A DNA stretch of 11,955 nucleotides from the UHGV virus genome UHGV-0104567, one strand, 5' to 3'. Below are positions 2,884 to 10,736 of this stretch, in pieces. The position numbers and the translations under genes were made by a program. The stretch is from a virus. A model generated the notes under the pieces. The model was not told the DNA's origin, did no database searches, and saw only the letters and a program-made list of their open reading frames with translations. Position 1 is the stretch's first letter, and each line of letters opens with the position of its first letter.

Positions 2884-5793
2884 TTATGCCTGAGTACGCA
2901 GCGCTTCAAGGCGGCGCAGGTCGAAGTCGTTCAGTTCGTCGGTGTAGTCAGCAGTGATTGGCGCTGGCCATTCACCTGTGTCGAATCCGGTTGCGATATT
3001 GCGCATCGCTTTGCGGTACTCGAGCATACCCAGCTCCAGTAGTTCAGCGGATGCCTCGATGATGGCGATCCAGTGGTAGTTCTCGTCTTTGTTGACGAAA
3101 ATCCAGAAGAACTGATCCAGCGCTGCGGTTTCGCAGTACATAGCCGCGCTCAGGTGATAATCACGTTCAATAATTTCCCGGTGTAGCCTGGCGCGCAGGC
3201 TTTCCTGCTTAACATTCCACATGCTGATGGTTTTCAGGTCTGCACCTATACGCACGCCATCCAGGTCGATCTCAAGGTCAGGGCGCACACGAACTTCCAA
3301 GCCCGTCTCCTCGTCAAAACCAAAGTAGCTCACCTCAACGGCTCGGCTAGGGTGGGTCAGCAGCATGCCGGCGGTCGGGTGTGCCAGAAGCGCTTTTTGA
3401 ATATTCAGCGCGGTGCTCAGCTGCTGGCGGGTGACCAGCACTTTTCCTTCCGGGTTATCGCGCCAGGCATCCAGCAGTTCGTCGGCAAATACGGCATCTG
3501 GTTTGACTGCCTTCACGGCCTGGATCATGTCTGCTTTGGTACCGGACACTTTCAGTGGTGCCGGTTTCTGTGCTTCCTGAGCCACAAGGTCAGGGTTGAT
3601 GATTGCCAACTGCTCCAGCAGCGCGTCACGGCTGCCGCTGGTTTTAACCGGCGGCGGCAGGGTGGCGTTGTACTCTTTAATGCATGCCTTCATTGCCGTC
3701 GCCGTCTGCTTCTGGTCACCATCAATACGCTGGAAGTCAGCTGGCAGCGCCATATAGTTCTGTGCCGTTTCTTCCAGGTTAGCGCCAAGCGGAACCTGCG
3801 GCGGCAGGGTGGCGTTGTACTCTTCCAGTAACACCTTGATGTCGTCGGCAGACAGCAGCGCCGGCAGGCTGGCATTGTGCTCATCGATAAAGGCGCGCAG
3901 GGTCGCGGCCGTTGTGAATGCGCCTTCAGGGATCACCGGTTCAACGCTGAATTCTGCGTCCAGTAGTTCAGGCTGCAACGCCAGCGCATGCACCAAGTTG
4001 CCCATGTCCAGCACCGCTGAGCGCTCTTTGACGATGGTTTTCTCTACGTGGCGCGCATTGAAGTACATCAGCGAAACGCGCGCATCTTTCACCTGGGTTG
4101 AGCTGATGCCGTTGGCGGCGTGGTAAACCTCGTTTGGCAGCCCTTCATAGCGGCCTGGCTCGAAATAAGCGGGATAAACAACAGCTGGTTCGTCAGATTG
4201 CGCTTCTGGCTCGGTTTGTGCTGCAACTGGTTCGGTTTGGCTTACAGAATCGCTATTTTTGGCGACAGAATCCGTATTCTGGTCTACATCGTCCTTCTGG
4301 CTGGTATCTGACTCTTCACCAGACTCCAGACTGCTTTCGCCTGGCTGTACTTCATCACCAGCTTGTTTTTCATCACTGACAGTTTCTTGAACCTGCACAT
4401 TGCTGGTGGTCTCCGTAGCCTTTTTCGTGCCATGAGTTGCTGAGTTCTGCAGCAAAGCCGTAACGTCGAATATTCCGTTGCCGACATTTTTAACCAGTTC
4501 TTGTTCGACTTTCTGCGGTTGTGCTGCCGCTTCCTCTGCGCGGCGGCGTGCTCCTTCTTCACGCACGCGTTGCAGGTTCTCTTCGTGAGTGCAGAAGGAT
4601 TTGCGCGGAGACTCCTTACCTTCAGGTTGGGGAATTTCCTGTGCTGCGGGTTCAGCCTCATGCAACGGCAATAACTCGACCGCGGAATTGAACGCGGCTG
4701 TCATGGTCTGGTTAACAAATTCCAGGTGAGCGACAGGAGTTAAATGAATATTTTCCGGTGCGATACGTACCAGGTTAAAAATAGCCGTGCGGTTAACACC
4801 CAGAACGCCTGGCTGATTGCGCAGGATGTTGCTCCATGATTTCCATGGTTCTTCTTTTTTGGTCACGATTTCTTTAGCGCGACGAAGAATGCTGCCCGGG
4901 ATCTCGAAGTGGTTGAAGTCCATAGGCAGAAGGGCACACGCAATCTCTAAATCGAGAGTGTCCAGTGTGTGGTGTGCGTCAGGTCCACGGTCAGTGACGT
5001 AACCGCCGTCGGCATTAGTGCCGGAATCAGTACGCTGCACACTACTGATGCGATTACCGGCGGCCCATTCACGCGCCAGGATGCCACGGTCAATGTAATC
5101 AGTCGCCGCCCACATTCTGGTGAAACGGAGTACCAGCGCGAGTTCGTGACGCTTGTCCTGGCTGAACACTTTGCGAATGGCATCGGTGTAGCGCCACAGG
5201 TCTTTGGTGTCGTAACCCTTCACTTCCGGGCAGTTCTCAGCAGCTAACAGCAAGTTCTGGACGTAACTGTTATCAGTGTCCATCTCCAGCGCGCCGATAG
5301 CTTCGTACTCTTCGTGGGTTACGTGGTGGCGCAGTTCGTCGGCGGTGAACTGGGAAAGCAGTTGCTTACGAAACGGCATCTGCACTACCGGGTAGAGGGT
5401 TGAGTCGTCGTCGTGTTCGTCCAGCGTGATGCCAGCGGTTTCTGGCAGCGTTGACTCAGTAGTTATGTGACTATCAACGGTCTGAGCCGTTTTCTCGTCA
5501 GAGTTTTCAGCTGTGACTTTTGGCAGCCAGGTGCGGTCATCGTTCTGCAGTTCGTAGCGTTCGCACCAGGTGTAATCCACTGCGCCTTCTTCCGGCAGGT
5601 CGTCATATACCGGGAAATCGGTGCGGATTGGTTTGGCATAATCTTTACCGCGGCCAGTTTCTTCAATTCCGGCTTCTTCCAGTGCCACATCGAGTTGGAG
5701 ATTGGCGCGCGCTACACTTTTCGCAGTGAACCAAATCACTGCATCTTTCTTGCCAGACTTCTGACTGGCTTTTATCAGATGGAAAAATTCCAT
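2884..5793 (-). CDS. recE: Exodeoxyribonuclease VIII (RecE-like) with C-terminal PD-(D/E)XK nuclease domain
   Basis: 969 aa, ATG at 5793 with SD AGAGGA. N-terminal segments DFPVYDDLPEEGAVDYTWCERYEL and TDYIDRGILAREWAAGNRIS resemble E. coli RecE as I recall it. C-terminal RPDLEIDLDG...GADLKT fits PD-(D/E)XK motifs. Synteny with recT. Confidence 0.8.
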   Translation of the reverse strand: MEFFHLIKASQKSGKKDAVIWFTAKSVARANLQLDVALEEAGIEETGRGKDYAKPIRTDFPVYDDLPEEGAVDYTWCERYELQNDDRTWLPKVTAENSDEKTAQTVDSHITTESTLPETAGITLDEHDDDSTLYPVVQMPFRKQLLSQFTADELRHHVTHEEYEAIGALEMDTDNSYVQNLLLAAENCPEVKGYDTKDLWRYTDAIRKVFSQDKRHELALVLRFTRMWAATDYIDRGILAREWAAGNRISSVQRTDSGTNADGGYVTDRGPDAHHTLDTLDLEIACALLPMDFNHFEIPGSILRRAKEIVTKKEEPWKSWSNILRNQPGVLGVNRTAIFNLVRIAPENIHLTPVAHLEFVNQTMTAAFNSAVELLPLHEAEPAAQEIPQPEGKESPRKSFCTHEENLQRVREEGARRRAEEAAAQPQKVEQELVKNVGNGIFDVTALLQNSATHGTKKATETTSNVQVQETVSDEKQAGDEVQPGESSLESGEESDTSQKDDVDQNTDSVAKNSDSVSQTEPVAAQTEPEAQSDEPAVVYPAYFEPGRYEGLPNEVYHAANGISSTQVKDARVSLMYFNARHVEKTIVKERSAVLDMGNLVHALALQPELLDAEFSVEPVIPEGAFTTAATLRAFIDEHNASLPALLSADDIKVLLEEYNATLPPQVPLGANLEETAQNYMALPADFQRIDGDQKQTATAMKACIKEYNATLPPPVKTSGSRDALLEQLAIINPDLVAQEAQKPAPLKVSGTKADMIQAVKAVKPDAVFADELLDAWRDNPEGKVLVTRQQLSTALNIQKALLAHPTAGMLLTHPSRAVEVSYFGFDEETGLEVRVRPDLEIDLDGVRIGADLKTISMWNVKQESLRARLHREIIERDYHLSAAMYCETAALDQFFWIFVNKDENYHWIAIIEASAELLELGMLEYRKAMRNIATGFDTGEWPAPITADYTDELNDFDLRRLEALRTQA
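3651..3824 (-). repeat. Perfect 27-bp direct repeat inside recE, copies at 3651-3677 and 3798-3824, 147 bp apart (in frame)
   Basis: GCGGCGGCAGGGTGGCGTTGTACTCTT occurs twice, read directly. On the coding strand it encodes the duplicated peptide EYNATLPP, 49 codons apart. Confidence 0.85.
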
Positions 5794-5932
5794 GTGAGAT
5801 CCTCTTTTTTGGGTGTTAGAATCCCCGGACCATTGATAGCGCCCATTGGGTTAACTTTGGTTTTAATGTTGTTTCCGGTGTAACTTTGGTCGGTACCACC
5901 GGACGTAGATCCCGCCTTGCGCGGGTTTTACG

Positions 5933-6094
5933 TTAGCCTTCGTGAGCCATCTGGTCGTGCGAAGCGCAACGTTTGGAGCAATACTCTTTTTCTTTGCGCG
6001 CCAGCTGTGAGCCGTTGCGATAGAGAAGGGTGCTCTTGATTACTTCCTCCGTTTTAACCGGCTTGCCGCAATATCCGCATTTCTTGTCTAACAT
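5933..6094 (-). CDS. Small zinc-ribbon protein, 53 aa (CxxC...CxxxC); YdaE-like by position
   Basis: Not in the supplied track (below size cutoff). Hand translation: MLDKKCGYCGKPVKTEEVIKSTLLYRNGSQLARKEKEYCSKRCASHDQMAHEG. SD GGAGG 5 nt upstream of ATG, directly after the stop of the upstream gene (coupled). Confidence 0.5.
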   Translation of the reverse strand: MLDKKCGYCGKPVKTEEVIKSTLLYRNGSQLARKEKEYCSKRCASHDQMAHEG

Positions 6095-6105
6095 GACATC
6101 CTCCG

Positions 6106-6312
6106 CTAGTGGCTGAGTCCATGCCCCAGACCGTTCAGATAAACTTCAACCAGCAAATCCTTGGTGTAAGTCATTTCTACGCCGCGATGCAGATACAAAC
6201 GTCCGCGAGCGTTAGCTGATGCCGTCCAGGTTGAGTCTTTGTGTTTGACGAGCATCCCCGGCTGAACTGCGCCGCGGTTTACTGTCTGTGTACCGTAGTG
6301 CTGATGAACCAT
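6106..6312 (-). CDS. Small protein at the kil position of lambdoid/Rac early operons (68 aa; function not established)
   Basis: ATG at 6312 with SD GGAG 6 nt upstream. The track ORF extends to a GTG at 6471 with no SD. Kil-like assignment is positional only. Confidence 0.5.
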   Translation of the reverse strand: MVHQHYGTQTVNRGAVQPGMLVKHKDSTWTASANARGRLYLHRGVEMTYTKDLLVEVYLNGLGHGLSH

Positions 6313-6491
6313 GATGTACTCCAGTTTTTCTGAGTGAACTTCGCTGGTGGTGCCGTGGTGCTGATCTTCACAGTTGAGCGTTTTAACTCTGCAGTTCACC
6401 ACCGCGAAACCCACTCTTATGTGCCTGTCTTTTATCCACTTCAGGCTCGGTGGTATGCTGGTAGTTCTCACACAGCCAGCAAGGAATAACT

Positions 6492-6785
6492 ATGAAATCA
6501 GTAACTAAGCCATGTCCTATTTGTGGTGAAGATGCTTTGTCTTTTAACCAGACAAATCAGTTGGTTAACATCAAAGTAAAACCACCAACTATTCGTGAAG
6601 TTCCATCAGTGGTTTACGTTTGCGATACTCACGGATGGTTTTCACTTTCAGAACAGATAAACAGACTCGTCACATCTAATAACGACCCTGCGGCTAAGCA
6701 AAAACTGGCTGTTATTGTCAAAGAGCGATATGTGCCGGAACAGGATCAGCCGTTAGCCCTGAAACCTATTGAGTCGCTCGCATAA
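6492..6785 (+). CDS. Hypothetical zinc-ribbon protein (97 aa; CPICG ... CDTHG), opposite orientation to flanking early genes
   Basis: ATG with SD AAGGA 7 nt upstream. CxxC and CxxH pairs about 30 residues apart suggest a zinc ribbon, possibly like the MqsA N-terminal (YgiT-type) finger, but no HTH follows. Visibly more AT-rich than flanking genes. Confidence 0.6.
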   Translation: MKSVTKPCPICGEDALSFNQTNQLVNIKVKPPTIREVPSVVYVCDTHGWFSLSEQINRLVTSNNDPAAKQKLAVIVKERYVPEQDQPLALKPIESLA

Positions 6786-7035
6786 GGTCTTTTCGGCTCT
6801 CGCTGCGATATCCCAGGCGGTACATTTTCACGTAGGCTTTGCCGCGAGGAATGCCGCCTGTTTTGTTGAATCTCTGCTGGGCGCGGCGATGGTGTTTTGC
6901 TTCAGGGCTGTTTGAACCTTTCCCGCCATTCGATCGAGAACTTGGGAGTTGCATTGGCTTTTGGCGTGAATAGAATTTACGTGCCCAGCATGCTCCAAAG
7001 CCGATCATGCCTGTTTTCTTCGTATTACCTTTCAT
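6766..7035 (-). CDS. Hypothetical small basic protein (89 aa, Lys/Arg/Gly-rich)
   Basis: ATG at 7035 with SD GAGGGG 6 nt upstream. The track ORF extends to 7128. Overlaps the convergent + ORF by 20 bp. Located where the N gene would sit relative to the repressor in lambda, but no N similarity recognised. Confidence 0.4.
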   Translation of the reverse strand: MKGNTKKTGMIGFGACWARKFYSRQKPMQLPSSRSNGGKGSNSPEAKHHRRAQQRFNKTGGIPRGKAYVKMYRLGYRSESRKDLMRATQ

Positions 7036-7188
7036 CTCAATCCCCTCGTTTGCCCTTGTCGCCAGGCTGGCGGAACATTTCTTAACCTGACAACGGTGCG
7101 CGTGTTGTCGATGGAGATAACAATACAAATTTTATTTTCATCTCGCAAGTGGAATGAAATGTAAATTTTCAATTAGGGGTACAGCAAA

Positions 7189-7208
7189 GCATCCAAGCTG
7201 TTGGATGC
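7189..7208 (-). terminator. Candidate weak intrinsic terminator downstream of the repressor gene (8-bp stem GCATCCAA/TTGGATGC, loop GCTG)
   Basis: Hairpin read directly. On the minus-strand transcript it is preceded by a U8 run and followed only by UUUGCUGU, so the T-tract is poor. Confidence 0.3.
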
Positions 7209-7230
7209 AATGAAAAAAAAGATGTGATTT

Positions 7231-7650
7231 TTACTTCTGAATGCTTTGGATGATGTTGGAAACGTCATCCTTGAGGAGATCTAGCTCTTTAAGGGTGGCT
7301 TTTGCGTGAACGATGAGGCGAAGCTTTTCTGCTTCAGGCATCTGGTTGAATAATGAGAGCAAAGCGATTTCTTTTTCATCCAGTTGCCGTGGAGGTTCAT
7401 GCATGCTCAGGTCATCATCACCTGCATCAGGCGGCATAAAAAACCAATGCTCTGGTTTACCTGTGGCAGCTGCAAGGCGTTTCAACCTTTCACCTCGAGG
7501 CGCAGACTCACCTTTAGCCCATTGCTGAACTGCCTGGGGAGTAACCATGGCTCTCCTGGCTATATCAGACATGTTCCAGCCGAATTCATCTTTGATGAGC
7601 TGAAGTCGGTAGGCGAACGCTTCATGAGGTGCTTTTTTCATGGCAATCAT
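7231..7650 (-). CDS. racR: Prophage repressor, XRE-family HTH (RacR-like)
   Basis: HTH segment WNMSDIARRAMVTPQAVQQWAKGE; divergent from a YdaS/YdaT-like pair, as for racR in Rac. Start ambiguous: in-frame ATGs at 7695, 7677, 7650 and 7641, none with a clear SD (possibly leaderless). I chose 7650 because it keeps the 14-bp palindrome intergenic and gives a typical XRE N-terminus. Confidence 0.7.
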   Translation of the reverse strand: MIAMKKAPHEAFAYRLQLIKDEFGWNMSDIARRAMVTPQAVQQWAKGESAPRGERLKRLAAATGKPEHWFFMPPDAGDDDLSMHEPPRQLDEKEIALLSLFNQMPEAEKLRLIVHAKATLKELDLLKDDVSNIIQSIQK

Positions 7651-7680
7651 TCTACAAGGTAGCCTTTCATAGTGCATTGC

Positions 7681-7716
7681 AAATATTATTTTCATTCTTG
7701 ATTGAAAATAATATTT
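7681..7716. promoter_or_regulatory. Operator-like perfect inverted repeat (14-bp arms AAATATTATTTTCA / TGAAAATAATATTT, 8-bp spacer) in the divergent repressor / cro-like control region
   Basis: Read directly. Sits within five TTTCAT repeats (7636-7641, 7665-7670, 7690-7695, 7715-7720, 7735-7740). Candidate -35 TTGATT (7698-7703) and -10 TGTAAT (7723-7728) lie upstream of the cro-like gene, whose SD is GAGG. Confidence 0.5.
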
Positions 7717-7756
7717 TCATGTTGTAATCTCATTTTTCATTCACTGAGGGCTGGAT

Positions 7757-7984
7757 ATGACCAAATCAATCAAACAGCGAGTATGCGATGTCATGACTCA
7801 AACAGAGATCGCCAAGAGTCTTGGCACAACTTCTCAAGCTGTAAGTCTATGGCTGAACCATGAGGTTCCCGCGCATCGAGTGCTCCCGATTTGCAAGTTA
7901 TTGGGATGGAAAATCACTCCACATGAAGTACGTAGTGACATTTATCCCAATCCTACAGACGGGCTGCCAAAACAGGAGTCCTGA
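7757..7984 (+). CDS. ydaS: Cro-like HTH regulator, YdaS family
   Basis: 75 aa; TEIAKSLGTTSQAVSLWLNHEVPAHRVLPICKLLGW matches the YdaS/Cro-type HTH pattern. Divergent from the repressor and followed 3 bp later by the YdaT-like gene. Confidence 0.7.
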   Translation: MTKSIKQRVCDVMTQTEIAKSLGTTSQAVSLWLNHEVPAHRVLPICKLLGWKITPHEVRSDIYPNPTDGLPKQES

Positions 7985-7986
7985 CC

Positions 7987-8529
7987 ATGCATGCCATTTC
8001 ATATCAACAAAATACCGGAATAACTCCGGTGGCGATGATAAATCGCAATCAGCCAAGTGCGGCAGATAAGCACGAACAGATCCGCGATGCCGTTCGTGCC
8101 TGGGCCGCATCACTGGATAACCAGGATGTGGTTGCCGGAATCATCGTTGAAGAATGGGAGAGACAGGGCGGTGCCGGGCTGGATTTTCCAGAAGACCTGA
8201 GCCGTAAGCGTCAGAAACTCTTCCGATGGCTCGATGGTGATACGGAGTATGCGCGCAAAAACATCAGCCAGCTGTCACCCGCGATCCTCGCCGTTCTACC
8301 GCTTGAGTTCCGTGGCCGCCTGGTACCCCAAGACTGCTTTATGACGCGTTATGCAGCGATGGAGAAGGAGATCGGCGAAGCGAAACGCGCGGTAATTCTG
8401 AGGGCGCCACAGCATCAGCTGGTGAAAGAGGTGAGAGAGGGCATTGAACACCTGCTGGCGCTTCTGCCAGGGGAGGCTGTTGTTCAGGTTCTGAGTGGTC
8501 TCGCGGTAATGAGCCCGGGCGTAATGTGA
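7987..8529 (+). CDS. ydaT: YdaT-family protein (historically annotated as toxin YdaT; CII-like regulator by analogy)
   Basis: 180 aa; segment EEWERQGGAGLDFPEDLSRKRQKLFRWLDGDTEYARKNISQLSPAILAVLPLEFRGRL fits my recollection of the YdaT family. SD AGGAG 8 nt upstream of the ATG. Confidence 0.7.
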   Translation: MHAISYQQNTGITPVAMINRNQPSAADKHEQIRDAVRAWAASLDNQDVVAGIIVEEWERQGGAGLDFPEDLSRKRQKLFRWLDGDTEYARKNISQLSPAILAVLPLEFRGRLVPQDCFMTRYAAMEKEIGEAKRAVILRAPQHQLVKEVREGIEHLLALLPGEAVVQVLSGLAVMSPGVM

Positions 8530-8670
8530 GGTGCGCAGTGAATCATGTCGAATTTAAGGTGAAAGCCGCGGTGCGCGAACACCAACGGCTTTCGGGTGCA
8601 AAAACGCGACGTAATTGCGAGGTCATTATGACAAACGCATGTACTAAACACCAGGCAAAAGGGGCATAGC

Positions 8671-9720
8671 ATGTCGAATGTCGCTTATGCCGATTTTGCG
8701 GCACGTAGTGCCATCAGGAGCAACCGGATGGAGAACCAGAAGACCGGATTCATCCCGTTGTACCGGAGCGTACTGAAGAAGCCCTGGGCGAAAGATGTGT
8801 TCCTGCGCACGCTGTGGGAGAACCTTCTTTTGGGGGCTGCGCGCCAGCCCTACACGGCAAACTTTAAAGGCCGTCAATGGCCATTACAAACCGGACAACT
8901 GGTAACCACCTCGGCCGATTTGGGGCTGAAATTATGCGACAGGGAAGGGAAGCCATGTAGTCGTCACGCCGTGGATAGAATGCTGGATATTTTCGAGCGT
9001 GAAGGAATGATTTCTCGCTATGGAGAGAAGCGAAAAGGCACTGTGATAACCATCACAAATTATGAGCAATACGCTCAAAAAACGAGCGATTTACCCGCGC
9101 AATTCCCCGCGCATATTGCCGAGCATTACCCAGCGCATGACGAAGCCAGCAGTGGTGCGGCTTGCGGAGGGTATGCCGCGCATTTACCCGCGAATAAGAC
9201 CGCGCATTTCACCGAGAATCATGAACAACAATGTAATAACAACAATATAAATAATAAGATCTCTTCGTCTCGGAATTCTGATGAATCCCGAAACGAGGCA
9301 ACTCAAAAATTCCTCTCTCGTCACCCTGAAGCTGCTGACGGAATCTACACGCCTGCAGGTAAGTCATGGGGCACCGCTGACGATCTCAAAGCCGCTCGCT
9401 GGATTCATTCCCTGCGCCTGACGGTCAATTCCAGCCTGAGCGAGCCGAAGTGGGTCGAATGGGCTAACACAATCCGTCTGATGCGCGTCCAGGACAACCG
9501 TACTCACTTCGAGATTTGCGACCTGTTCAAGTGGGCCAACAAGGATGATTTCTGGAAAGACAACATCCTGAGCCCATCAAGCCTGCGCAGGAAGTGGGAC
9601 GACCTGACAACCAAGCGCCTGCGCAGCGGTGGACAGGCAATGAAGTCCAATGCGAAGGGCAAGATCGATTTCAACAACACAGACTGGATAAACGGGGTGT
9701 TCGATGAAAAGTCTTTCTGA
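8671..9720 (+). CDS. Phage replication initiator / replisome organiser (lambda O functional analogue; winged-helix N-terminal domain, low-complexity linker, conserved C-terminal domain)
   Basis: 349 aa; SD AAAAGGGG. Immediately upstream of and overlapping the P-like gene. Contains iteron-like repeats and an AT-rich tract in the linker-coding region. An alternative ATG at 8728 has SD AGGAG. Confidence 0.75.
   Translation: MSNVAYADFAARSAIRSNRMENQKTGFIPLYRSVLKKPWAKDVFLRTLWENLLLGAARQPYTANFKGRQWPLQTGQLVTTSADLGLKLCDREGKPCSRHAVDRMLDIFEREGMISRYGEKRKGTVITITNYEQYAQKTSDLPAQFPAHIAEHYPAHDEASSGAACGGYAAHLPANKTAHFTENHEQQCNNNNINNKISSSRNSDESRNEATQKFLSRHPEAADGIYTPAGKSWGTADDLKAARWIHSLRLTVNSSLSEPKWVEWANTIRLMRVQDNRTHFEICDLFKWANKDDFWKDNILSPSSLRRKWDDLTTKRLRSGGQAMKSNAKGKIDFNNTDWINGVFDEKSF
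9087..9265 (+). repeat. Iteron-like direct repeats (TTACCCGCGCA family) followed by a roughly 45-bp AT-rich tract; candidate origin of replication inside the initiator gene
   Basis: CCGCGCA at 9095-9101, 9107-9113, 9176-9182 and 9200-9206, plus variants CCCAGCGCA (9129-9137) and CCCGCGAA (9187-9194), most preceded by TTAC/TTCC. AT-rich tract at about 9221-9265. Confidence 0.55.
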
Positions 9721-10393
9721 GCAGTTGATGAACTGTGATCGCGAGAATTTCCGCCGCATCGCAAACGGTATGCCCGAGGCGCCGGCGGAACGCCCGCAGG
9801 TTGAGCAGACGGCCGAAATTTTTAACGCCCTATTCAGCGCATTGCGCGCCGCGTTCCCGGCCAGCTTGCACAGCTTTAACGACCAGGCCGAGTTCAACGA
9901 GCTGCGTCGCCAGTGGGTGCTGGCATTCCGTGAAAATGGGATCACTACCATGGAGCAGGTGAGCGCCGGTCTGCGAGTGGCCCGCCGCCAGGAGCGCCCA
10001 TTCCTGCCGTCGCCGGGCCAGTTCGTCGCCTGGTGCAAGCAGAGCGGCGGCGCGCTGGGCGTCAACGTTGACCAGGTGATCGCCGAATACTGGGACTGGC
10101 GTAACCGCTCGTTCGAATTCATCTCCAGCGAGCAATTTCCATGGTCGCAGCCGGTCATGTACCACATTTGCGTAGAATTGCGCCACCGCAGCACCGAGCG
10201 CCAGTTAACGCATGGTGAACTGGCACGCGAGGCAGGCGATCTGCTGGACATGTGGGAAAGGCGCGTCACCGAGGGTAAGCCAGTGCCGCCGGTACGCCGG
10301 GCTATTGCCGCACCAGCTGCCGAGCAAGGGCCGACGCCGATCCAGCTGCTGCTGGCCAAGTACAACCGCAACAAGTCGAACGGGATGGTGTGA
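9704..10393 (+). CDS. Lambda P-like replication protein (DnaB helicase loader)
   Basis: 229 aa; long collinear similarity to lambda P as I recall it, e.g. CDRENFRRIANGMPE and RRQWVLAFRENGITTMEQVSAGLRVARRQERPFLPSPGQFVAWC. Start overlaps the 3' end of the initiator gene by 17 bp. Confidence 0.85.
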   Translation: MKSLSEQLMNCDRENFRRIANGMPEAPAERPQVEQTAEIFNALFSALRAAFPASLHSFNDQAEFNELRRQWVLAFRENGITTMEQVSAGLRVARRQERPFLPSPGQFVAWCKQSGGALGVNVDQVIAEYWDWRNRSFEFISSEQFPWSQPVMYHICVELRHRSTERQLTHGELAREAGDLLDMWERRVTEGKPVPPVRRAIAAPAAEQGPTPIQLLLAKYNRNKSNGMV

Positions 10394-10394
10394 G

Positions 10395-10736
10395 ATGGCC
10401 ATAACAATTCGTGAGCAACTGCTGGCAGCACTGCGTAATAACCCAGGGCTTAACTCCGCGCTACTGGCCTCAATGGTTGGCATGACCAGCAAAAAGATAT
10501 CGGGAACGATTAGCGCACTGATGGCCGATGGGTTGATTTCCTGTGAAGGCCGCTATGGCCAGCGTCTGTATAGCCTGACCAGTTACGGAATGCGCTATGC
10601 AGCTGACACAGTACCAGGCAGGAAGATTGGCACGACGAAGTTAATTCAGCGGACGGACACAAACGTGATCTGCCAGGAGTGCCGCAATAGCGCGGTGATG
10701 AAACGAATTTTAAGCGTATACGGGGTGAGAGCATGA
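10395..10736 (+). CDS. Hypothetical protein, possible winged-helix DNA-binding fold (113 aa)
   Basis: ATG 1 bp after the P stop; the track ORF's 5' extension (from 10212) overlaps P in another frame and is rejected. Stop overlaps the next start (ATGA). Confidence 0.5.
   Translation: MAITIREQLLAALRNNPGLNSALLASMVGMTSKKISGTISALMADGLISCEGRYGQRLYSLTSYGMRYAADTVPGRKIGTTKLIQRTDTNVICQECRNSAVMKRILSVYGVRA

What the first reader, a model, noticed from the sequence alone, without database searches (positions are those of the whole stretch)
7231..8529. RacR-like repressor divergent from a YdaS/YdaT pair, with a perfect 14-bp palindrome and phased TTTCAT repeats in the switch region
Seen: an XRE-type repressor gene (minus) and a Cro-like/YdaT-like pair (plus) flank about 100 bp of AT-rich DNA holding a perfect inverted repeat (7681-7694 and 7703-7716) and five TTTCAT copies spaced 20-29 bp apart. 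Established: in E. coli K-12 Rac, racR is essential because loss of repression lets ydaS/ydaT expression kill the host, and YdaS/YdaT have been described both as a toxin-antitoxin pair and as Cro/CII analogues. Inference: this is the immunity switch of the element and the palindrome plus TTTCAT repeats are operator sites. None of the four candidate repressor ATGs has an SD, so a leaderless repressor mRNA (as for lambda cI from PRM) is possible.
Basis: partly seen in the sequence, partly recalled or inferred. Interest (0 to 1): 0.6.

Follow-up and report, generated by a model that had tools for sequence, protein, structure and literature searches.

The report
Prophage immunity switch, Gifsy-type repressor
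This is the ordinary lysis/lysogeny control region of a Rac/Gifsy-like lambdoid prophage: a small repressor and a Cro-like gene face each other across four 17-bp operator sites, so it is a well-understood kind of switch rather than something new.

Summary

The interpretation needs three corrections:
- **Repressor family.** The repressor (true start Met19, 7641; 136 aa) is not a RacR orthologue. It matches K-12 RacR only over 44 aa of helix-turn-helix. It is 53% identical over its full length to the Gifsy-1/2 repressor GtgR, a small non-cleavable repressor.
- **Operators.** The palindrome and the TTTCAT repeats are two views of one thing: four 17-bp dyad operators, TGnAA-N7-TTnCA, at 7653-69, 7678-94, 7703-19 and 7723-39. 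Two more lie at the leftward promoter (7124-40, 7155-71). Across 16 related sequences, 38 of 40 half-site bases are invariant, against 18 of 47 bases elsewhere in the spacer. The 14-bp repeat is perfect only in this window. The fifth TTTCAT is the repressor's ATG-AAA.
- **Leaderless mRNA.** This is supported. A TA(A/G/T)AAT −10 box sits 6-7 nt before the ATG in all 48 distinct relatives.

The repressor and YdaS are exchanged together with their operators. YdaT stays 96-99% identical throughout. This fits a CI/Cro/CII arrangement, not a toxin pair.

Induction is inferred to use a LexA-controlled antirepressor encoded beyond the window.

Verdict: a new member of a known kind, of low interest.

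The parts
7231..7641 (-). Repressor gene (CI analogue), 136 aa, XRE/HTH_3 family, Gifsy GtgR type. The true start is Met19 of the 154-aa ORF that runs up to 7695.
   Evidence: - Pfam HTH_3, 41 bits.
- Met-Lys at 7641 is invariant in 20 homologues, while the codons upstream of it are not conserved.
- 53% identity over 136 aa to the Gifsy-1/2 repressor.
- 26% over 128 aa to DicA.
- 30% over 44 aa to RacR.
- The AlphaFold model is all-helical: a five-helix HTH, a disordered linker and a C-terminal helical hairpin.
7189..7208 (-). Intrinsic terminator of the repressor transcript.
   Evidence: Found by the terminator scan. The stem keeps pairing through compensatory changes in relatives, for example GCATCCAA/TTGGATGC versus GCAGCCAA/TTGGCTGC versus GCAATCA/TGATTGC.
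7649..7654 (-). PRM −10 hexamer TAGAAT (reverse complement of ATTCTA), 7 nt upstream of the repressor ATG. This implies a leaderless mRNA that starts at or next to A7641.
   Evidence: TA(A/G/T)AAT lies 6-7 nt before the conserved ATG in 48 of 48 distinct upstream regions, from relatives with 53-100% repressor identity. The 6-7 nt in between are not conserved.
7653..7669 (.). Operator O4, TACAAGGTAGCCTTTCA. Its centre is about −20 from the PRM start, making it the OR3-like autoregulatory site.
   Evidence: One mismatch to TGNAA-N7-TTNCA. All 17 positions are invariant in 16 sequences.
7678..7694 (.). Operator O3, TGCAAATATTATTTTCA. It abuts the weak PRM −35 and is centred about −45 from the PRM start, making it the OR2-like site.
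   Evidence: One mismatch to the O2 palindrome. Half-site positions are 99% conserved and the centre 93%.
7703..7719 (.). Operator O2, TGAAAATAATATTTTCA, a perfect 17-bp dyad.
   Evidence: (repeat I4). Half-sites are invariant while the centre varies. Its own dyad has 0-2 mismatches in all relatives.
7723..7739 (.). Operator O1, TGTAATCTCATTTTTCA, the weakest dyad. It overlaps the PR −10 and the inferred start site.
   Evidence: Half-sites are invariant while 7731-7733 vary. In another immunity group the half-site at this position changes to that group's motif, CTTGTA.
7702..7730 (+). PR promoter, TTGAAA-17 bp-TAATCT, driving ydaS-ydaT-O-P. The start is inferred near 7737, and there is an SD (GAGGG) at 7747-7751.
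   Evidence: TTGnnn-17-TAnnnT geometry is present in 41 of 51 distinct relatives. The sequence was read directly. It falls below the threshold of the simple promoter scan.
7757..7984 (+). ydaS-like gene (Cro analogue), 75 aa.
   Evidence: - PF15943, 40.8 bits against a cut-off of 30.
- phrog_35 transcriptional repressor, 3.6e-21.
- 30% identity to K-12 YdaS.
- Co-varies with the repressor across immunity groups.
7987..8529 (+). ydaT-like gene (CII analogue), 180 aa.
   Evidence: - PF06254, 137.5 bits against a cut-off of 21.
- phrog_163 CII-like activator, 9e-56.
- 42% identity to K-12 YdaT.
- Matches the solved CP-933P YdaT structure 8bt1, E=1.9e-7.
- Stays 96-99% identical in phages that carry different repressor/YdaS cassettes.
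8035..8052 (.). Candidate YdaT box, ATGATAAATCGCAATCAG, inside the 5' end of ydaT (low confidence).
   Evidence: Three mismatches to TTGATT-N6-AATCAA. It resembles the Rac YdaT box ATGATTCATGAAAATCAA, which also lies near the ydaT start (PMC11879457). It recurs in relatives of several immunity groups, but it is coding sequence, so conservation alone does not prove a site.
7155..7171 (.). Left operator OLa, TGAAATGTAAATTTTCA, just upstream of the PL −35.
   Evidence: Zero mismatches to the operator pattern. Half-sites are invariant and the centre variable. In relative L003 it is identical to that phage's O2.
7124..7140 (.). Left operator OLb, TACAAATTTTATTTTCA, overlapping the PL spacer and −10.
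   Evidence: In relatives it reads TACAAA-N5-TTTGTA. The motif at this position changes along with the OR motif in other immunity groups.
7120..7148 (-). PL promoter, TTGCGA-17 bp-TATTGT on the minus strand, driving the leftward early operon (unknown gene, kil, ydaE, recE, recT). The start is inferred near 7113.
   Evidence: Read directly from the sequence. The −10 block TAACAATACAAAT is invariant in group A. Relatives have better −35 boxes such as TTGTCA. This assignment is inference; no start site has been mapped.

Best explanation
The region is the immunity switch of a Rac/Gifsy-like lambdoid prophage.

**Lysogenic state.** A 136-aa, non-cleavable XRE-family repressor is made from a leaderless mRNA. 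Its promoter PRM has the −10 box TAGAAT 7 nt before the ATG. The repressor is inferred to bind as dimers to 17-bp dyad operators of the form TGnAA-N7-TTnCA.
- Four operators fill the 115-bp spacer, with centres 25, 25 and 20 bp apart.
- O1 and O2 cover the −10, start site and −35 of the rightward promoter PR (TTGAAA-17-TAATCT), so binding there blocks ydaS-ydaT-O-P.
- O3 abuts the weak PRM −35, where a bound repressor could stimulate its own synthesis.
- O4 lies inside PRM, where binding would limit repressor synthesis.
- Two further operators cover the leftward promoter PL, which drives the kil/recET operon.

**Lytic state.** The Cro-like YdaS, the first gene from PR, is inferred to use the same operators to shut PRM off.

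**Establishment.** YdaT is the CII analogue. It lies outside the exchangeable immunity cassette and probably acts at a YdaT box near its own 5' end.

**Induction.** The repressor is inferred to be inactivated by a small LexA-controlled antirepressor, not by RecA-stimulated self-cleavage. The antirepressor would be encoded in a dinI operator module beyond the right end of the window.

**What is shown and what is inferred.**
- Shown here: the sites, their conservation, their co-variation with the repressor/YdaS cassette, the −10-to-ATG geometry, and the homologies.
- Inferred: which protein binds which site, activation at O3, the transcription start sites, and the induction route.
For: **Genes and families**
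- HTH_3, YdaS and YdaT pass Pfam cut-offs, and O and P replication genes follow.
- Kil and YdaE lie to the left.
- The repressor is 53% identical over its full length to Gifsy-1/2 GtgR.

**Operators**
- All six matches to TGNAA-N7-TTNCA (≤1 mismatch) in the 11.9-kb window fall in the two regulatory spacers.
- Four sites in the 115-bp spacer were reached in 0 of 20,000 local shuffles; two in the OL region gave P=0.008.
- The OL sites were found independently using the O2 palindrome, where 0.04 matches were expected.
- Footprint across 16 distinct sequences: 38 of 40 half-site positions invariant, against 17 of 28 operator centres, 18 of 47 other spacer positions, and 16% of repressor third-codon positions.
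- In heteroimmune relatives the half-site differs (TACAAG-N5-CTTGTA, or GTTTCA/GTTTCG types), and it changes at OR and OL together.

**Leaderless start**
- Met-Lys at 7641 is invariant while upstream codons vary.
- A −10 box lies 6-7 nt from the ATG in 48 of 48 distinct relatives.
- The analogous PaaR2 repressor of prophage CP-933P was shown experimentally to be leaderless (PMC8630535).

**Cassette structure**
- Repressor/YdaS identities move together (98/99, 75/61, 71/66, 63/65, 53/49, 34/42%), while YdaT stays 96-99% identical across cassettes whose repressor identity ranges from 30% to 100%.

**Induction route**
- Gifsy repressors are not cleaved and are inactivated by LexA-controlled antirepressors (PMC3121763).
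- The AlphaFold model is all-helical with no S24 peptidase domain.
- A relative with a 98%-identical repressor (L229) carries this module about 6 kb right of ydaT: terminator, LexA box TACTGTATAAAAACACAGTA, DinI (PF06183), a 69-aa ORF 65% identical to the Gifsy-2 ORF at the gftA position, and DUF1367.
Against: - No binding, start-site or expression data exist for this element.
- The operator pattern was defined from this sequence, so the shuffle P-values are optimistic.
- The whole-window count of pattern matches (6) is no higher than chance (6.3 expected). Only their clustering and conservation are significant.
- The simple σ70 scan found no promoter in 7150-8700. PR, PRM and PL are all sub-consensus and were assigned by eye plus conservation.
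- O1 and O4 are poor dyads (5 of 8 pairs), and their left halves overlap −10 boxes. Part of their conservation may therefore be promoter constraint.
- The repressor and YdaS always co-vary, so sequence data cannot say which of them reads the operators.
- In Rac, YdaS was reported not to repress racR (PMC9638921), so the Cro analogy may be incomplete.
- The window holds no LexA box or antirepressor gene, and its right arm (the P gene) is mosaic relative to its immunity relatives. The antirepressor route is therefore extrapolated.
Confidence: 0.8

Rival explanations
1. One regulatory palindrome (14-bp arms with an 8-bp gap, centred at 7698/7699) is bound as a single unit. A separate class of phased TTTCAT direct repeats is bound by another protein, or head-to-tail.
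For: - The inverted repeat is perfect in this window and extends to 20-nt arms at 90% complementarity.
- TTTCAT is locally enriched.
- For CP-933P, the authors considered that both direct and inverted repeats might be used (PMC8630535).
Against: - The long repeat decays to 1-4 mismatches in all 15 close relatives. Meanwhile each arm's own 17-bp dyad and its outer half-sites stay intact.
- Two adjacent copies of any palindromic site automatically form both a direct and an inverted repeat.
- The T after TTTCA is not conserved.
- The copy at 7636 is the repressor's ATG-AAA, which is conserved because Met-Lys is invariant.
- Every other TTTCA has a TGnAA or TACAA partner exactly 12 nt upstream.
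Confidence: 0.07
2. A toxin-repressor or atypical toxin-antitoxin module. YdaS and YdaT are a toxin pair, and the main role of the divergent repressor is to keep them silent.
For: - The Pfam names are 'YdaS_toxin' and 'YdaT_toxin'.
- Silencing racR in K-12 up-regulates ydaS/ydaT and is lethal (PMC5700377 and PMC5700373).
Against: - YdaS travels with the repressor and its operators, whereas YdaT is shared almost unchanged (96-99%) among phages with different cassettes. That is the pattern of cro and cII, not of a co-adapted toxin/antitoxin pair.
- Both proteins are HTH DNA binders: phrog_35 repressor and phrog_163 CII-like activator, and the solved YdaT structure 8bt1.
- They sit between PR and the O/P replication genes, as cro and cII do in lambda.
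- Published work on CP-933P and Rac shows Cro-like and CII-like activities (PMC8630535, PMC9986795, PMC11879457), and Jobling made the same argument (PMC5917428).
Confidence: 0.05
3. The repressor is the full 154-aa or a 139-aa ORF (start at 7695 or 7650), translated from a leadered mRNA made by a promoter further to the right. PRM as proposed here does not exist.
For: - The ORF is open up to 7695.
- Gene callers annotated 139-154-aa versions in several relatives.
- In Gifsy-3 an N-terminally extended repressor form appears on induction (PMC3121763).
Against: - Residues before Met19 are not conserved, and the reading frame is lost in relatives with 6-nt spacing.
- None of the upstream ATGs has an SD.
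- The ATG at 7650 is part of the conserved −10 context TAGAATG.
- The −10-to-ATG distance is fixed at 6-7 nt in 48 of 48 relatives.
Confidence: 0.05
4. The repressor and YdaS read different, interleaved sites. For example, the repressor reads the TACAA-type half-sites of O4/OLb and YdaS reads the TGAAA type, rather than both sharing all operators.
For: - Two half-site flavours coexist (TACAA in O4 and OLb; TGAAA, TGCAA or TGTAA elsewhere), and group B mixes both motif types.
- CP-933P footprints of PaaR2 and YdaS overlap but are not identical.
Against: - All sites share one 17-bp frame and the same right half, TTTCA.
- L065 swaps TTTCA for TTTGTA within O3 with no other change, which suggests the two flavours are tolerated variants of a single site.
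Confidence: 0.15

Closest known systems
Gifsy-1/Gifsy-2 (Salmonella LT2) immunity region: repressor GtgR/GftR with the LexA-controlled antirepressor GftA (Lemire et al. 2011, PMC3121763)
   Same: - The repressor is 53% identical over all 136 aa.
- Both are small, all-helical and lack a cleavage domain.
- Both face a divergent Cro analogue across an AT-rich spacer of about 110 bp, with a TAAAAT −10 box 6 nt before the ATG.
- recE/recT lie on the left and O-like replication genes on the right.
- Close relatives of the window carry the dinI-gftA-like LexA module.
   Different: - Operator half-sites differ, so the phages are heteroimmune.
- Gifsy-2 pairs its repressor with a P22 C1-type CII analogue, not YdaT.
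- The antirepressor module is not within this window.
CP-933P (E. coli O157:H7) paaR2 / ydaS-ydaT switch (Jurenas et al. 2021, PMC8630535; Prolic-Kalinsek et al. 2023, PMC9986795)
   Same: - A leaderless CI analogue faces ydaS-ydaT across about 100 bp.
- There are four regularly spaced palindromes of about 18 bp that overlap PRM and PR.
- Matching operators lie at a PL promoter.
- YdaS behaves like Cro and YdaT like CII; YdaT is a tetramer that recognises TTGATT-N6-AATCAA.
   Different: - The operator sequence is different (GTTTAGTAA-type half-sites there).
- CP-933P carries the paaA2-parE2 toxin-antitoxin genes behind the repressor; here a terminator follows directly.
- The window's YdaT matches 8bt1 only at E=1.9e-7 over the DNA-binding domain.
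- The similarity of PaaR2 to this repressor was not measured.
E. coli K-12 Rac: racR / ydaS-ydaT
   Same: - The gene order is syntenic: int, xis, recT, recE, ydaE, kilR, repressor, ydaS, ydaT, replication genes.
- YdaT is 42% and YdaS 30% identical.
- There are multiple repressor operators in the spacer (PMC9638921).
- A YdaT box lies near the ydaT start (PMC11879457).
   Different: - The repressor is not orthologous, with 30% identity over 44 aa only.
- The RacR operator WTAGGC-N3-GCCTAW is absent.
- Replication genes are of the lambda O/P type, not ydaU/ydaV.
- The conserved PL leader element is absent from Rac.
Phage lambda cI-OR-cro-cII (and 434/P22)
   Same: From textbook knowledge:
- 17-bp dyad operators spaced about 24 bp apart, covering divergent PR and PRM.
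- A leaderless cI mRNA from PRM.
- Operator copies at PL.
- An exchangeable immunity cassette made of cI + operators + cro, with cII outside it.

The N-terminal domain has the 434/P22 c2 fold.
   Different: - There are four sites in the spacer rather than three, and two rather than three were detected at PL.
- The repressor lacks the S24 self-cleavage domain.
- The Cro and CII analogues belong to unrelated families (YdaS, YdaT).
Qin prophage DicA/DicC
   Same: DicA aligns over 128 aa, including the C-terminal LLxLFNxLPExE motif (26% identity, E=6e-12). Both have a divergent repressor/Cro-like layout.
   Different: - The score is below the NCBIfam DicA subfamily cut-off (44 against 101 bits).
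- DicC shows no similarity to the window's YdaS.

Membership tests
RacR (Rac prophage repressor) | Full-length sequence homology to K-12 RacR | tested here: not met
   BLASTP gives 30% identity over 44 aa, in the HTH only, at E=5e-4. The rest does not align.
RacR (Rac prophage repressor) | Operators of the form WTAGGC-N3-GCCTAW in the spacer (PMC9638921) | tested here: not met
   There is no match with ≤2 mismatches in 7100-7800. The only window match is at 6833.
Gifsy-type non-cleavable repressors (GtgR/GfoR; PMC3121763) | Full-length homology to a characterised member | tested here: met
Gifsy-type non-cleavable repressors (GtgR/GfoR; PMC3121763) | Small size (about 135-150 aa) with no LexA/CI-type S24 self-cleavage domain | tested here: met
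   The protein is 136 aa. The only Pfam hit is HTH_3. The AlphaFold model is all-helical, with mean pLDDT 81.
Gifsy-type non-cleavable repressors (GtgR/GfoR; PMC3121763) | A LexA-controlled dinI-antirepressor operon elsewhere in the same prophage | not testable with these tools
   The window has no LexA box to the right of the switch and ends about 4 kb right of ydaT. A relative with a 98%-identical repressor has the module about 6 kb right of ydaT.
Gifsy-type non-cleavable repressors (GtgR/GfoR; PMC3121763) | The repressor is not cleaved on induction and is released from DNA by antirepressor binding | not testable with these tools
   This needs western blots and EMSA.
DicA subfamily (NCBIfam NF007257) | HMM score at or above the curated cut-off | tested here: not met
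   44.1 bits against a cut-off of 101. The pairwise comparison gives 26% identity.
YdaS family (Pfam PF15943), Cro analogue | HMM score at or above the gathering cut-off | tested here: met
   40.8 bits against a cut-off of 30.
YdaS family (Pfam PF15943), Cro analogue | First gene of the rightward operon, divergent from the repressor and exchanged together with it | tested here: met
   It lies at 7757-7984, directly after PR and the SD. Its identity tracks repressor identity across 61 loci.
YdaT family (Pfam PF06254 / phrog_163), CII analogue | HMM score at or above the gathering cut-off | tested here: met
   137.5 bits against a cut-off of 21. phrog_163 scores 9e-56.
YdaT family (Pfam PF06254 / phrog_163), CII analogue | POU-like HTH domain plus a long helix forming a tetramer (PMC9986795) | not tested
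   There is only a sequence match to 8bt1 residues 21-108, E=1.9e-7. No model was built.
YdaT family (Pfam PF06254 / phrog_163), CII analogue | A (T/A)TGATT-N6-AATCAA box near the ydaS/ydaT junction | tested here: inconclusive
   The best candidate is ATGATAAATCGCAATCAG at 8035-8052, with 3 mismatches, inside coding sequence. It recurs in relatives.
Lambda-type CI repressor | C-terminal S24 peptidase domain for RecA-stimulated self-cleavage | tested here: not met
   There is no S24 hit. The C-terminal 48 residues form two helices.
Lambdoid immunity switch (architecture) | Several dyad operators overlapping divergent PR and PRM, repeated at PL | tested here: met
   There are four sites in the spacer and two at PL. 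They are conserved and co-vary with the immunity group.
Type II toxin-antitoxin pair (YdaS/YdaT) | The two partners are inherited and diverge together | tested here: not met
   YdaT is 96-99% identical in loci where YdaS is only 46-67% identical.
CP-933P-type paaR2-paaA2-parE2 locus | Toxin-antitoxin genes co-transcribed downstream of the repressor | tested here: not met
   The repressor stop at 7231 is followed by a terminator at 7208-7189, then the OL sites. There is no ORF in between.

The most novel reading that the evidence does not exclude
Two things the data allow but do not prove.

1. The whole Gifsy/DicA-like family of short repressors may be made from leaderless mRNAs, with the −10 box locked 6-7 nt from the ATG. 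Its operator specificity may evolve by half-site swaps (TGAAA, TACAAG, GTTTCG) that occur in step at OR and OL.

2. The most novel reading concerns the roughly 75-nt PL leader at 7036-7113. It is nearly invariant across all immunity groups, although the gene behind it differs from phage to phage. It could be a cis-acting RNA signal, such as a put-like protein-independent antiterminator or an attenuator with two mutually exclusive folds, in a phage group that has no recognisable N protein.
Probability: 0.15. Interest if true: 0.5.

Novelty: new member of a known kind. Interest (0 to 1): 0.22.

Why it matters
For annotation, three points follow:
- The repressor should be called a Gifsy-type (GtgR-like) CI analogue of 136 aa, not RacR and not a 154-aa protein.
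- 'YdaS_toxin' and 'YdaT_toxin' should be read as Cro and CII analogues.
- The operator motif TGnAA-N7-TTnCA defines the immunity specificity of this phage group.

The comparative set offers a ready-made natural experiment. Homologous repressor/Cro cassettes carry at least five different half-sites, and the matching OR and OL sites are known for each. This could be used to study how HTH specificity changes.

It also extends evidence for leaderless repressor mRNAs from lambda and CP-933P to a large family. None of this changes the current understanding of how such switches work.

Tried and rejected
- **DNA-level searches.** Searching 7100-8700 against E. coli complete genomes and GenBank phages gave only an 80-bp match near the start of the O gene. 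The element is not in those collections at the DNA level.
- **Promoter scan.** The simple σ70 scan found nothing in 7150-8700. Promoters were therefore assigned from conservation.
- **YdaT box.** TTGATT-N6-AATCAA with ≤2 mismatches gave one hit over the ydaS start codon (7752-7769), which is no better than chance. I do not rely on it.
- **LexA box.** There is no convincing site in the window.
- **Right arm via the P protein.** Fetching relatives with the window's P protein returned 80 loci, none with this repressor type. The right arm is mosaic. A second fetch using YdaT succeeded.
- **PDB sequence search.** The repressor gave nothing useful. The Foldseek PDB search gave only generic HTH_3 matches, none at E<0.001.
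- **Rfam.** No family was found for the PL leader. There was one sub-threshold isrB hit elsewhere.
- **Covariation in the PL leader.** Hairpin 1 is invariant, so the test is uninformative. Its single-sequence fold is not more stable than shuffles (z=−1.36).
- **PaaR2.** It was not found among the 120 repressor homologues when searched by its published N-terminus MQKKE. Its relation to this repressor was not measured.
- **Reverse promoter.** A PRE-like reverse promoter inside ydaS could not be identified by eye.

Full report
**1. The observation**

- 7681-7694 (AAATATTATTTTCA) and 7703-7716 (TGAAAATAATATTT) are exact reverse complements. The repeat extends to 20-nt arms at 90% complementarity.
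- TTTCAT occurs on the + strand at 7636, 7665, 7690, 7715 and 7735.
- Five copies within 116 bp occurred in only 0.025% of local dinucleotide-preserving shuffles.
- A minus-strand ORF (7231-7695) carries a Pfam HTH_3 domain. The plus-strand genes 7757-7984 and 7987-8529 pass the Pfam cut-offs for YdaS (40.8 against 30 bits) and YdaT (137.5 against 21 bits).
- None of the four in-frame ATGs of the minus-strand ORF has a Shine-Dalgarno sequence (read).

**2. Context**

The window is a Rac-like lambdoid prophage segment. From left to right it carries:
- a tyrosine integrase (5-1243);
- small leftward genes, including a DUF4060 gene;
- RecT-like (1760-2878) and RecE-like (2884-5793) genes;
- YdaE (5933-6094) and Kil (6106-6471);
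- the repressor, ydaS and ydaT;
- a lambda O-like gene (8671-9720) and a P-like gene (9704-10393).

This is the gene order of K-12 Rac. However, the DNA is not found in complete E. coli genomes or in GenBank phages. The nearest named hosts of related repressors are Pseudescherichia vulneris and Silvania confinis. IMG/VR holds many relatives, including one with an identical repressor protein.

**3. The repressor is not RacR**

Similarity to K-12 RacR is limited to 44 residues of the helix-turn-helix (30%, E=5e-4). The score against the NCBIfam DicA model is below its cut-off (44 against 101 bits), although DicA does align over 128 residues at 26% identity.

The best characterised match is the repressor of Gifsy-1/Gifsy-2 from Salmonella LT2, at 52.9% identity over all 136 residues. 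Lemire et al. (PMC3121763) showed three things about Gifsy repressors:
- They are not cleaved during induction.
- They bind small antirepressors.
- Those antirepressors are encoded in a LexA-controlled dinI operon outside the immunity region.

An AlphaFold model built from 20 homologues (mean pLDDT 81) has a five-helix HTH (residues 5-68), a disordered linker, and a helix-turn-long-helix tail. It has no β-rich S24 domain. Foldseek returns only HTH_3 regulators, including the N-terminal domains of the 434 and P22 c2 repressors.

**4. The start codon and the leaderless mRNA**

In an alignment of 20 homologues, Met-Lys at the window's Met19 (7641) is invariant, while everything upstream is variable. 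The gene is therefore 7231-7641 and encodes 136 aa.

On the coding strand the ATG is preceded by TAGAAT-GATTGCC. Across 48 distinct upstream regions, from relatives with 53-100% repressor identity, a TA(A/G/T)AAT hexamer always lies 6 or 7 nt before the conserved ATG. The bases in between are free to vary. Gifsy-2 shows the same arrangement.

This geometry leaves no room for a 5' leader. It matches the leaderless paaR2 mRNA demonstrated experimentally in prophage CP-933P (PMC8630535).

**5. What the palindrome and the TTTCAT repeats are**

The right arm of the palindrome lies inside a perfect 17-bp dyad, TGAAAATA-A-TATTTTCA (7703-7719). The left arm lies inside a near copy, TGCAAATATTATTTTCA (7678-7694).

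The pattern TGNAA-N7-TTNCA (≤1 mismatch) occurs six times in the window. All six lie in two places:
- 7653-69, 7678-94, 7703-19 and 7723-39, in the spacer;
- 7124-40 and 7155-71, just beyond the repressor's terminator.

The whole-window count is no higher than chance; the clustering is what stands out. Four sites in the 115-bp spacer were never reached in 20,000 local shuffles, and two sites in the left region gave P=0.008. These values are optimistic, because the pattern was derived from this sequence. An independent check exists: the left sites were first found with the O2 palindrome as query, where 0.04 matches were expected.

Four of the five TTTCAT copies are the right half-sites of the four spacer operators. 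The fifth (7636-7641) is the complement of the repressor's ATG-AAA.

**6. Phylogenetic footprint**

I compared 16 distinct sequences whose repressors are ≥87% identical.

| Position class | Invariant positions |
|---|---|
| Operator half-sites | 38 of 40 |
| Operator centres | 17 of 28 |
| Rest of the spacer | 18 of 47 |
| Repressor third-codon positions | 16% |

The variable stretches are exactly these:
- the −10-to-ATG gap;
- the gaps between operators (7670-73, 7695-7700);
- the operator centres;
- 7731-33 and 7740-46.

The 14-bp inverted repeat is perfect only in this window. All 15 relatives have 1-4 mismatches, and T7684 is G in 14 of them. The self-dyad of O2, by contrast, keeps 0-2 mismatches. 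The base after TTTCA varies between T, A and C.

**7. Co-variation across immunity groups**

More distant homologues (52-75% repressor identity) keep the same layout but use other half-sites. One group has TACAAG-N5-CTTGTA, and others have GTTTCA or GTTTCG types. In each group the region just past the repressor's terminator carries that same group's motif. Operators at OR and OL thus change together with the repressor, which is the signature of true operators in heteroimmune lambdoid phages.

**8. Promoters (inferred)**

- **PR:** TTGAAA (7702-07), a 17-bp spacer, then TAATCT (7725-30), followed by the SD GAGGG and the ydaS ATG. The TTGnnn-17-TAnnnT geometry recurs in 41 of 51 distinct relatives.
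  - O2 overlaps the −35 and the spacer.
  - O1 overlaps the −10 and the start site.
- **PRM:** the −10 is at 7654-7649, with a poor −35 (ATGCAC).
  - O3 abuts that −35, centred about −45.
  - O4 lies between the −10 and the −35, centred about −20.
- **PL:** TTGCGA-17-TATTGT on the minus strand (7148-7120).
  - OLb lies over the spacer and the −10.
  - OLa lies just upstream of the −35.

From textbook knowledge of lambda, this placement suggests four things:
- repression of PR and PL;
- possible self-activation from O3;
- self-limitation at O4;
- shut-off of PRM by the Cro analogue.

The simple promoter scan did not detect any of these promoters, and no binding data exist.

The repressor transcript ends at a hairpin (7208-7189). 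Its stem is maintained by compensatory changes in relatives.

**9. YdaS and YdaT**

I examined 61 loci fetched with the window's YdaT. Repressor and YdaS identities to the window rise and fall together, while YdaT remains 96-99% identical across cassettes whose repressor identity ranges from 30% to 100%.

| Repressor identity (%) | YdaS identity (%) |
|---|---|
| 98 | 99 |
| 75 | 61 |
| 71 | 66 |
| 63 | 65 |
| 53 | 49 |
| 34 | 42 |

The exchangeable immunity cassette is therefore repressor + operators + ydaS, with ydaT outside it. This is what is known for cI/cro versus cII in lambdoid hybrids (textbook knowledge). It is not what a co-adapted toxin-antitoxin pair would show.

This agrees with several published results:
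- Jobling's argument (PMC5917428);
- the Cro-like and CII-like activities shown for CP-933P (PMC8630535);
- the solved YdaT structure and its TTGATT-N6-AATCAA site (PMC9986795);
- the YdaT box ATGATTCATGAAAATCAA near the Rac ydaT start (PMC11879457).

The window has a similar sequence, ATGATAAATCGCAATCAG, at 8035-8052 in the 5' end of ydaT, and it recurs in relatives. It is coding sequence and has three mismatches to the CP-933P consensus, so it is only a candidate.

**10. Induction (inferred)**

The window has no LexA box near the switch, and it ends about 4 kb right of ydaT. In L229, a relative with a 98%-identical repressor, the following module lies about 6 kb right of ydaT:
- a terminator;
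- the LexA box TACTGTATAAAAACACAGTA;
- a DinI homologue (PF06183, 86 bits);
- a 69-aa ORF that is 65% identical to the Gifsy-2 ORF between dinI and the irsA-like gene, which is the position of the antirepressor gene gftA;
- a DUF1367 gene.

This is the Gifsy arrangement. Whether the element in this window has such a module cannot be told. Its right arm is mosaic, and its P gene is found with other immunity types.

**11. Comparison with known systems and verdict**

The region works like the lambda, CP-933P, Rac and Gifsy switches. By membership:
- The repressor belongs with the Gifsy-type short repressors. It is not RacR, not the DicA subfamily, and not a lambda-type CI.
- The two rightward genes belong to the YdaS and YdaT families.
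- The operator sequence, and hence the immunity specificity, is not among those described in the papers read here. However, the same specificity is common in public prophage sequences.

It is a new member of a known kind. Interest is low.

Noticed in passing
window 7036-7113 (minus strand), between PL and the first leftward gene: A roughly 75-nt leader is nearly invariant in 45 distinct versions from all immunity groups, although the gene behind it differs from phage to phage. It contains the palindrome GACAAC-N9-GTTGTC and a hairpin CGCCA-GCC-TGGCG. It is absent from K-12 Rac and has no Rfam match. Hairpin 1 shows no covariation, and the energy-minimum fold pairs GUUGUCAGG with CCUGGCGAC instead. 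It could be an antitermination or attenuation signal, a protein-binding site, or a module-boundary sequence.
   Followed up: partly
window 6766-7035 (minus strand): The first gene of the leftward operon encodes 89 aa (MKGNTKKTG…) and is basic. It matches phrog_29236, of unknown function, and has no Pfam hit. It sits where lambda has N. It was not found in any of the 61 YdaT-fetched relatives, so this slot is mosaic.
   Followed up: partly
window 6492-6785 (plus strand): A 97-aa ORF with a CPICG…C..H zinc-ribbon-like motif matches phrog_31519, of unknown function, over its full length. It is transcribed against the leftward operon, in the position that sieB occupies in Rac.
   Followed up: no
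window 8014-8030: A perfect 17-bp palindrome, ACCGGAGTTATTCCGGT, lies inside codons 10-15 of ydaT and is followed on the minus strand by a T-rich run. The terminator scan flagged it. It lies 5 bp left of the candidate YdaT box. It could stop leftward transcripts or be a protein-binding site.
   Followed up: no
L229 13130-14500 (relative with a 98%-identical repressor): This relative carries a complete Gifsy-style SOS module: terminator, LexA box TACTGTATAAAAACACAGTA, DinI homologue, a 69-aa GftA-like ORF (65% identical to Gifsy-2 STM1020.1n) and a DUF1367 gene.
   Followed up: yes
L144 3495-3911 (Gifsy-2, NC_010393.1 6864-7280): The deposited Gifsy-2 repressor gene starts at a GTG. The ATG 6 nt downstream is the conserved start, and it has a TAAAAT −10 box 6 nt upstream. 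GtgR is therefore probably also made from a leaderless mRNA, a point that paper does not mention.
   Followed up: partly
window 5835-5931 (plus strand): There is a sub-threshold Rfam match to the Hfq-binding sRNA isrB (28.6 bits against a gathering score of 35, E=0.076). It lies between the recE-like start and ydaE. It is probably chance.
   Followed up: no
window 6106-6471 (minus strand): The Kil (FtsZ inhibitor) homology covers only residues 47-120 of the 121-aa ORF. In relatives the Kil-type protein starts at MVHQHYGTQ, which corresponds to an internal Met here. The real gene is probably about 70 aa.
   Followed up: no
window 10212-10736 (plus strand): This ORF overlaps the end of the P-like gene and carries a winged-helix HTH_24 domain at residues 66-109. 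The likely real start is the internal MAITIREQ…, right after the P stop. It may be an extra DNA-binding protein in the nin-like region.
   Followed up: no
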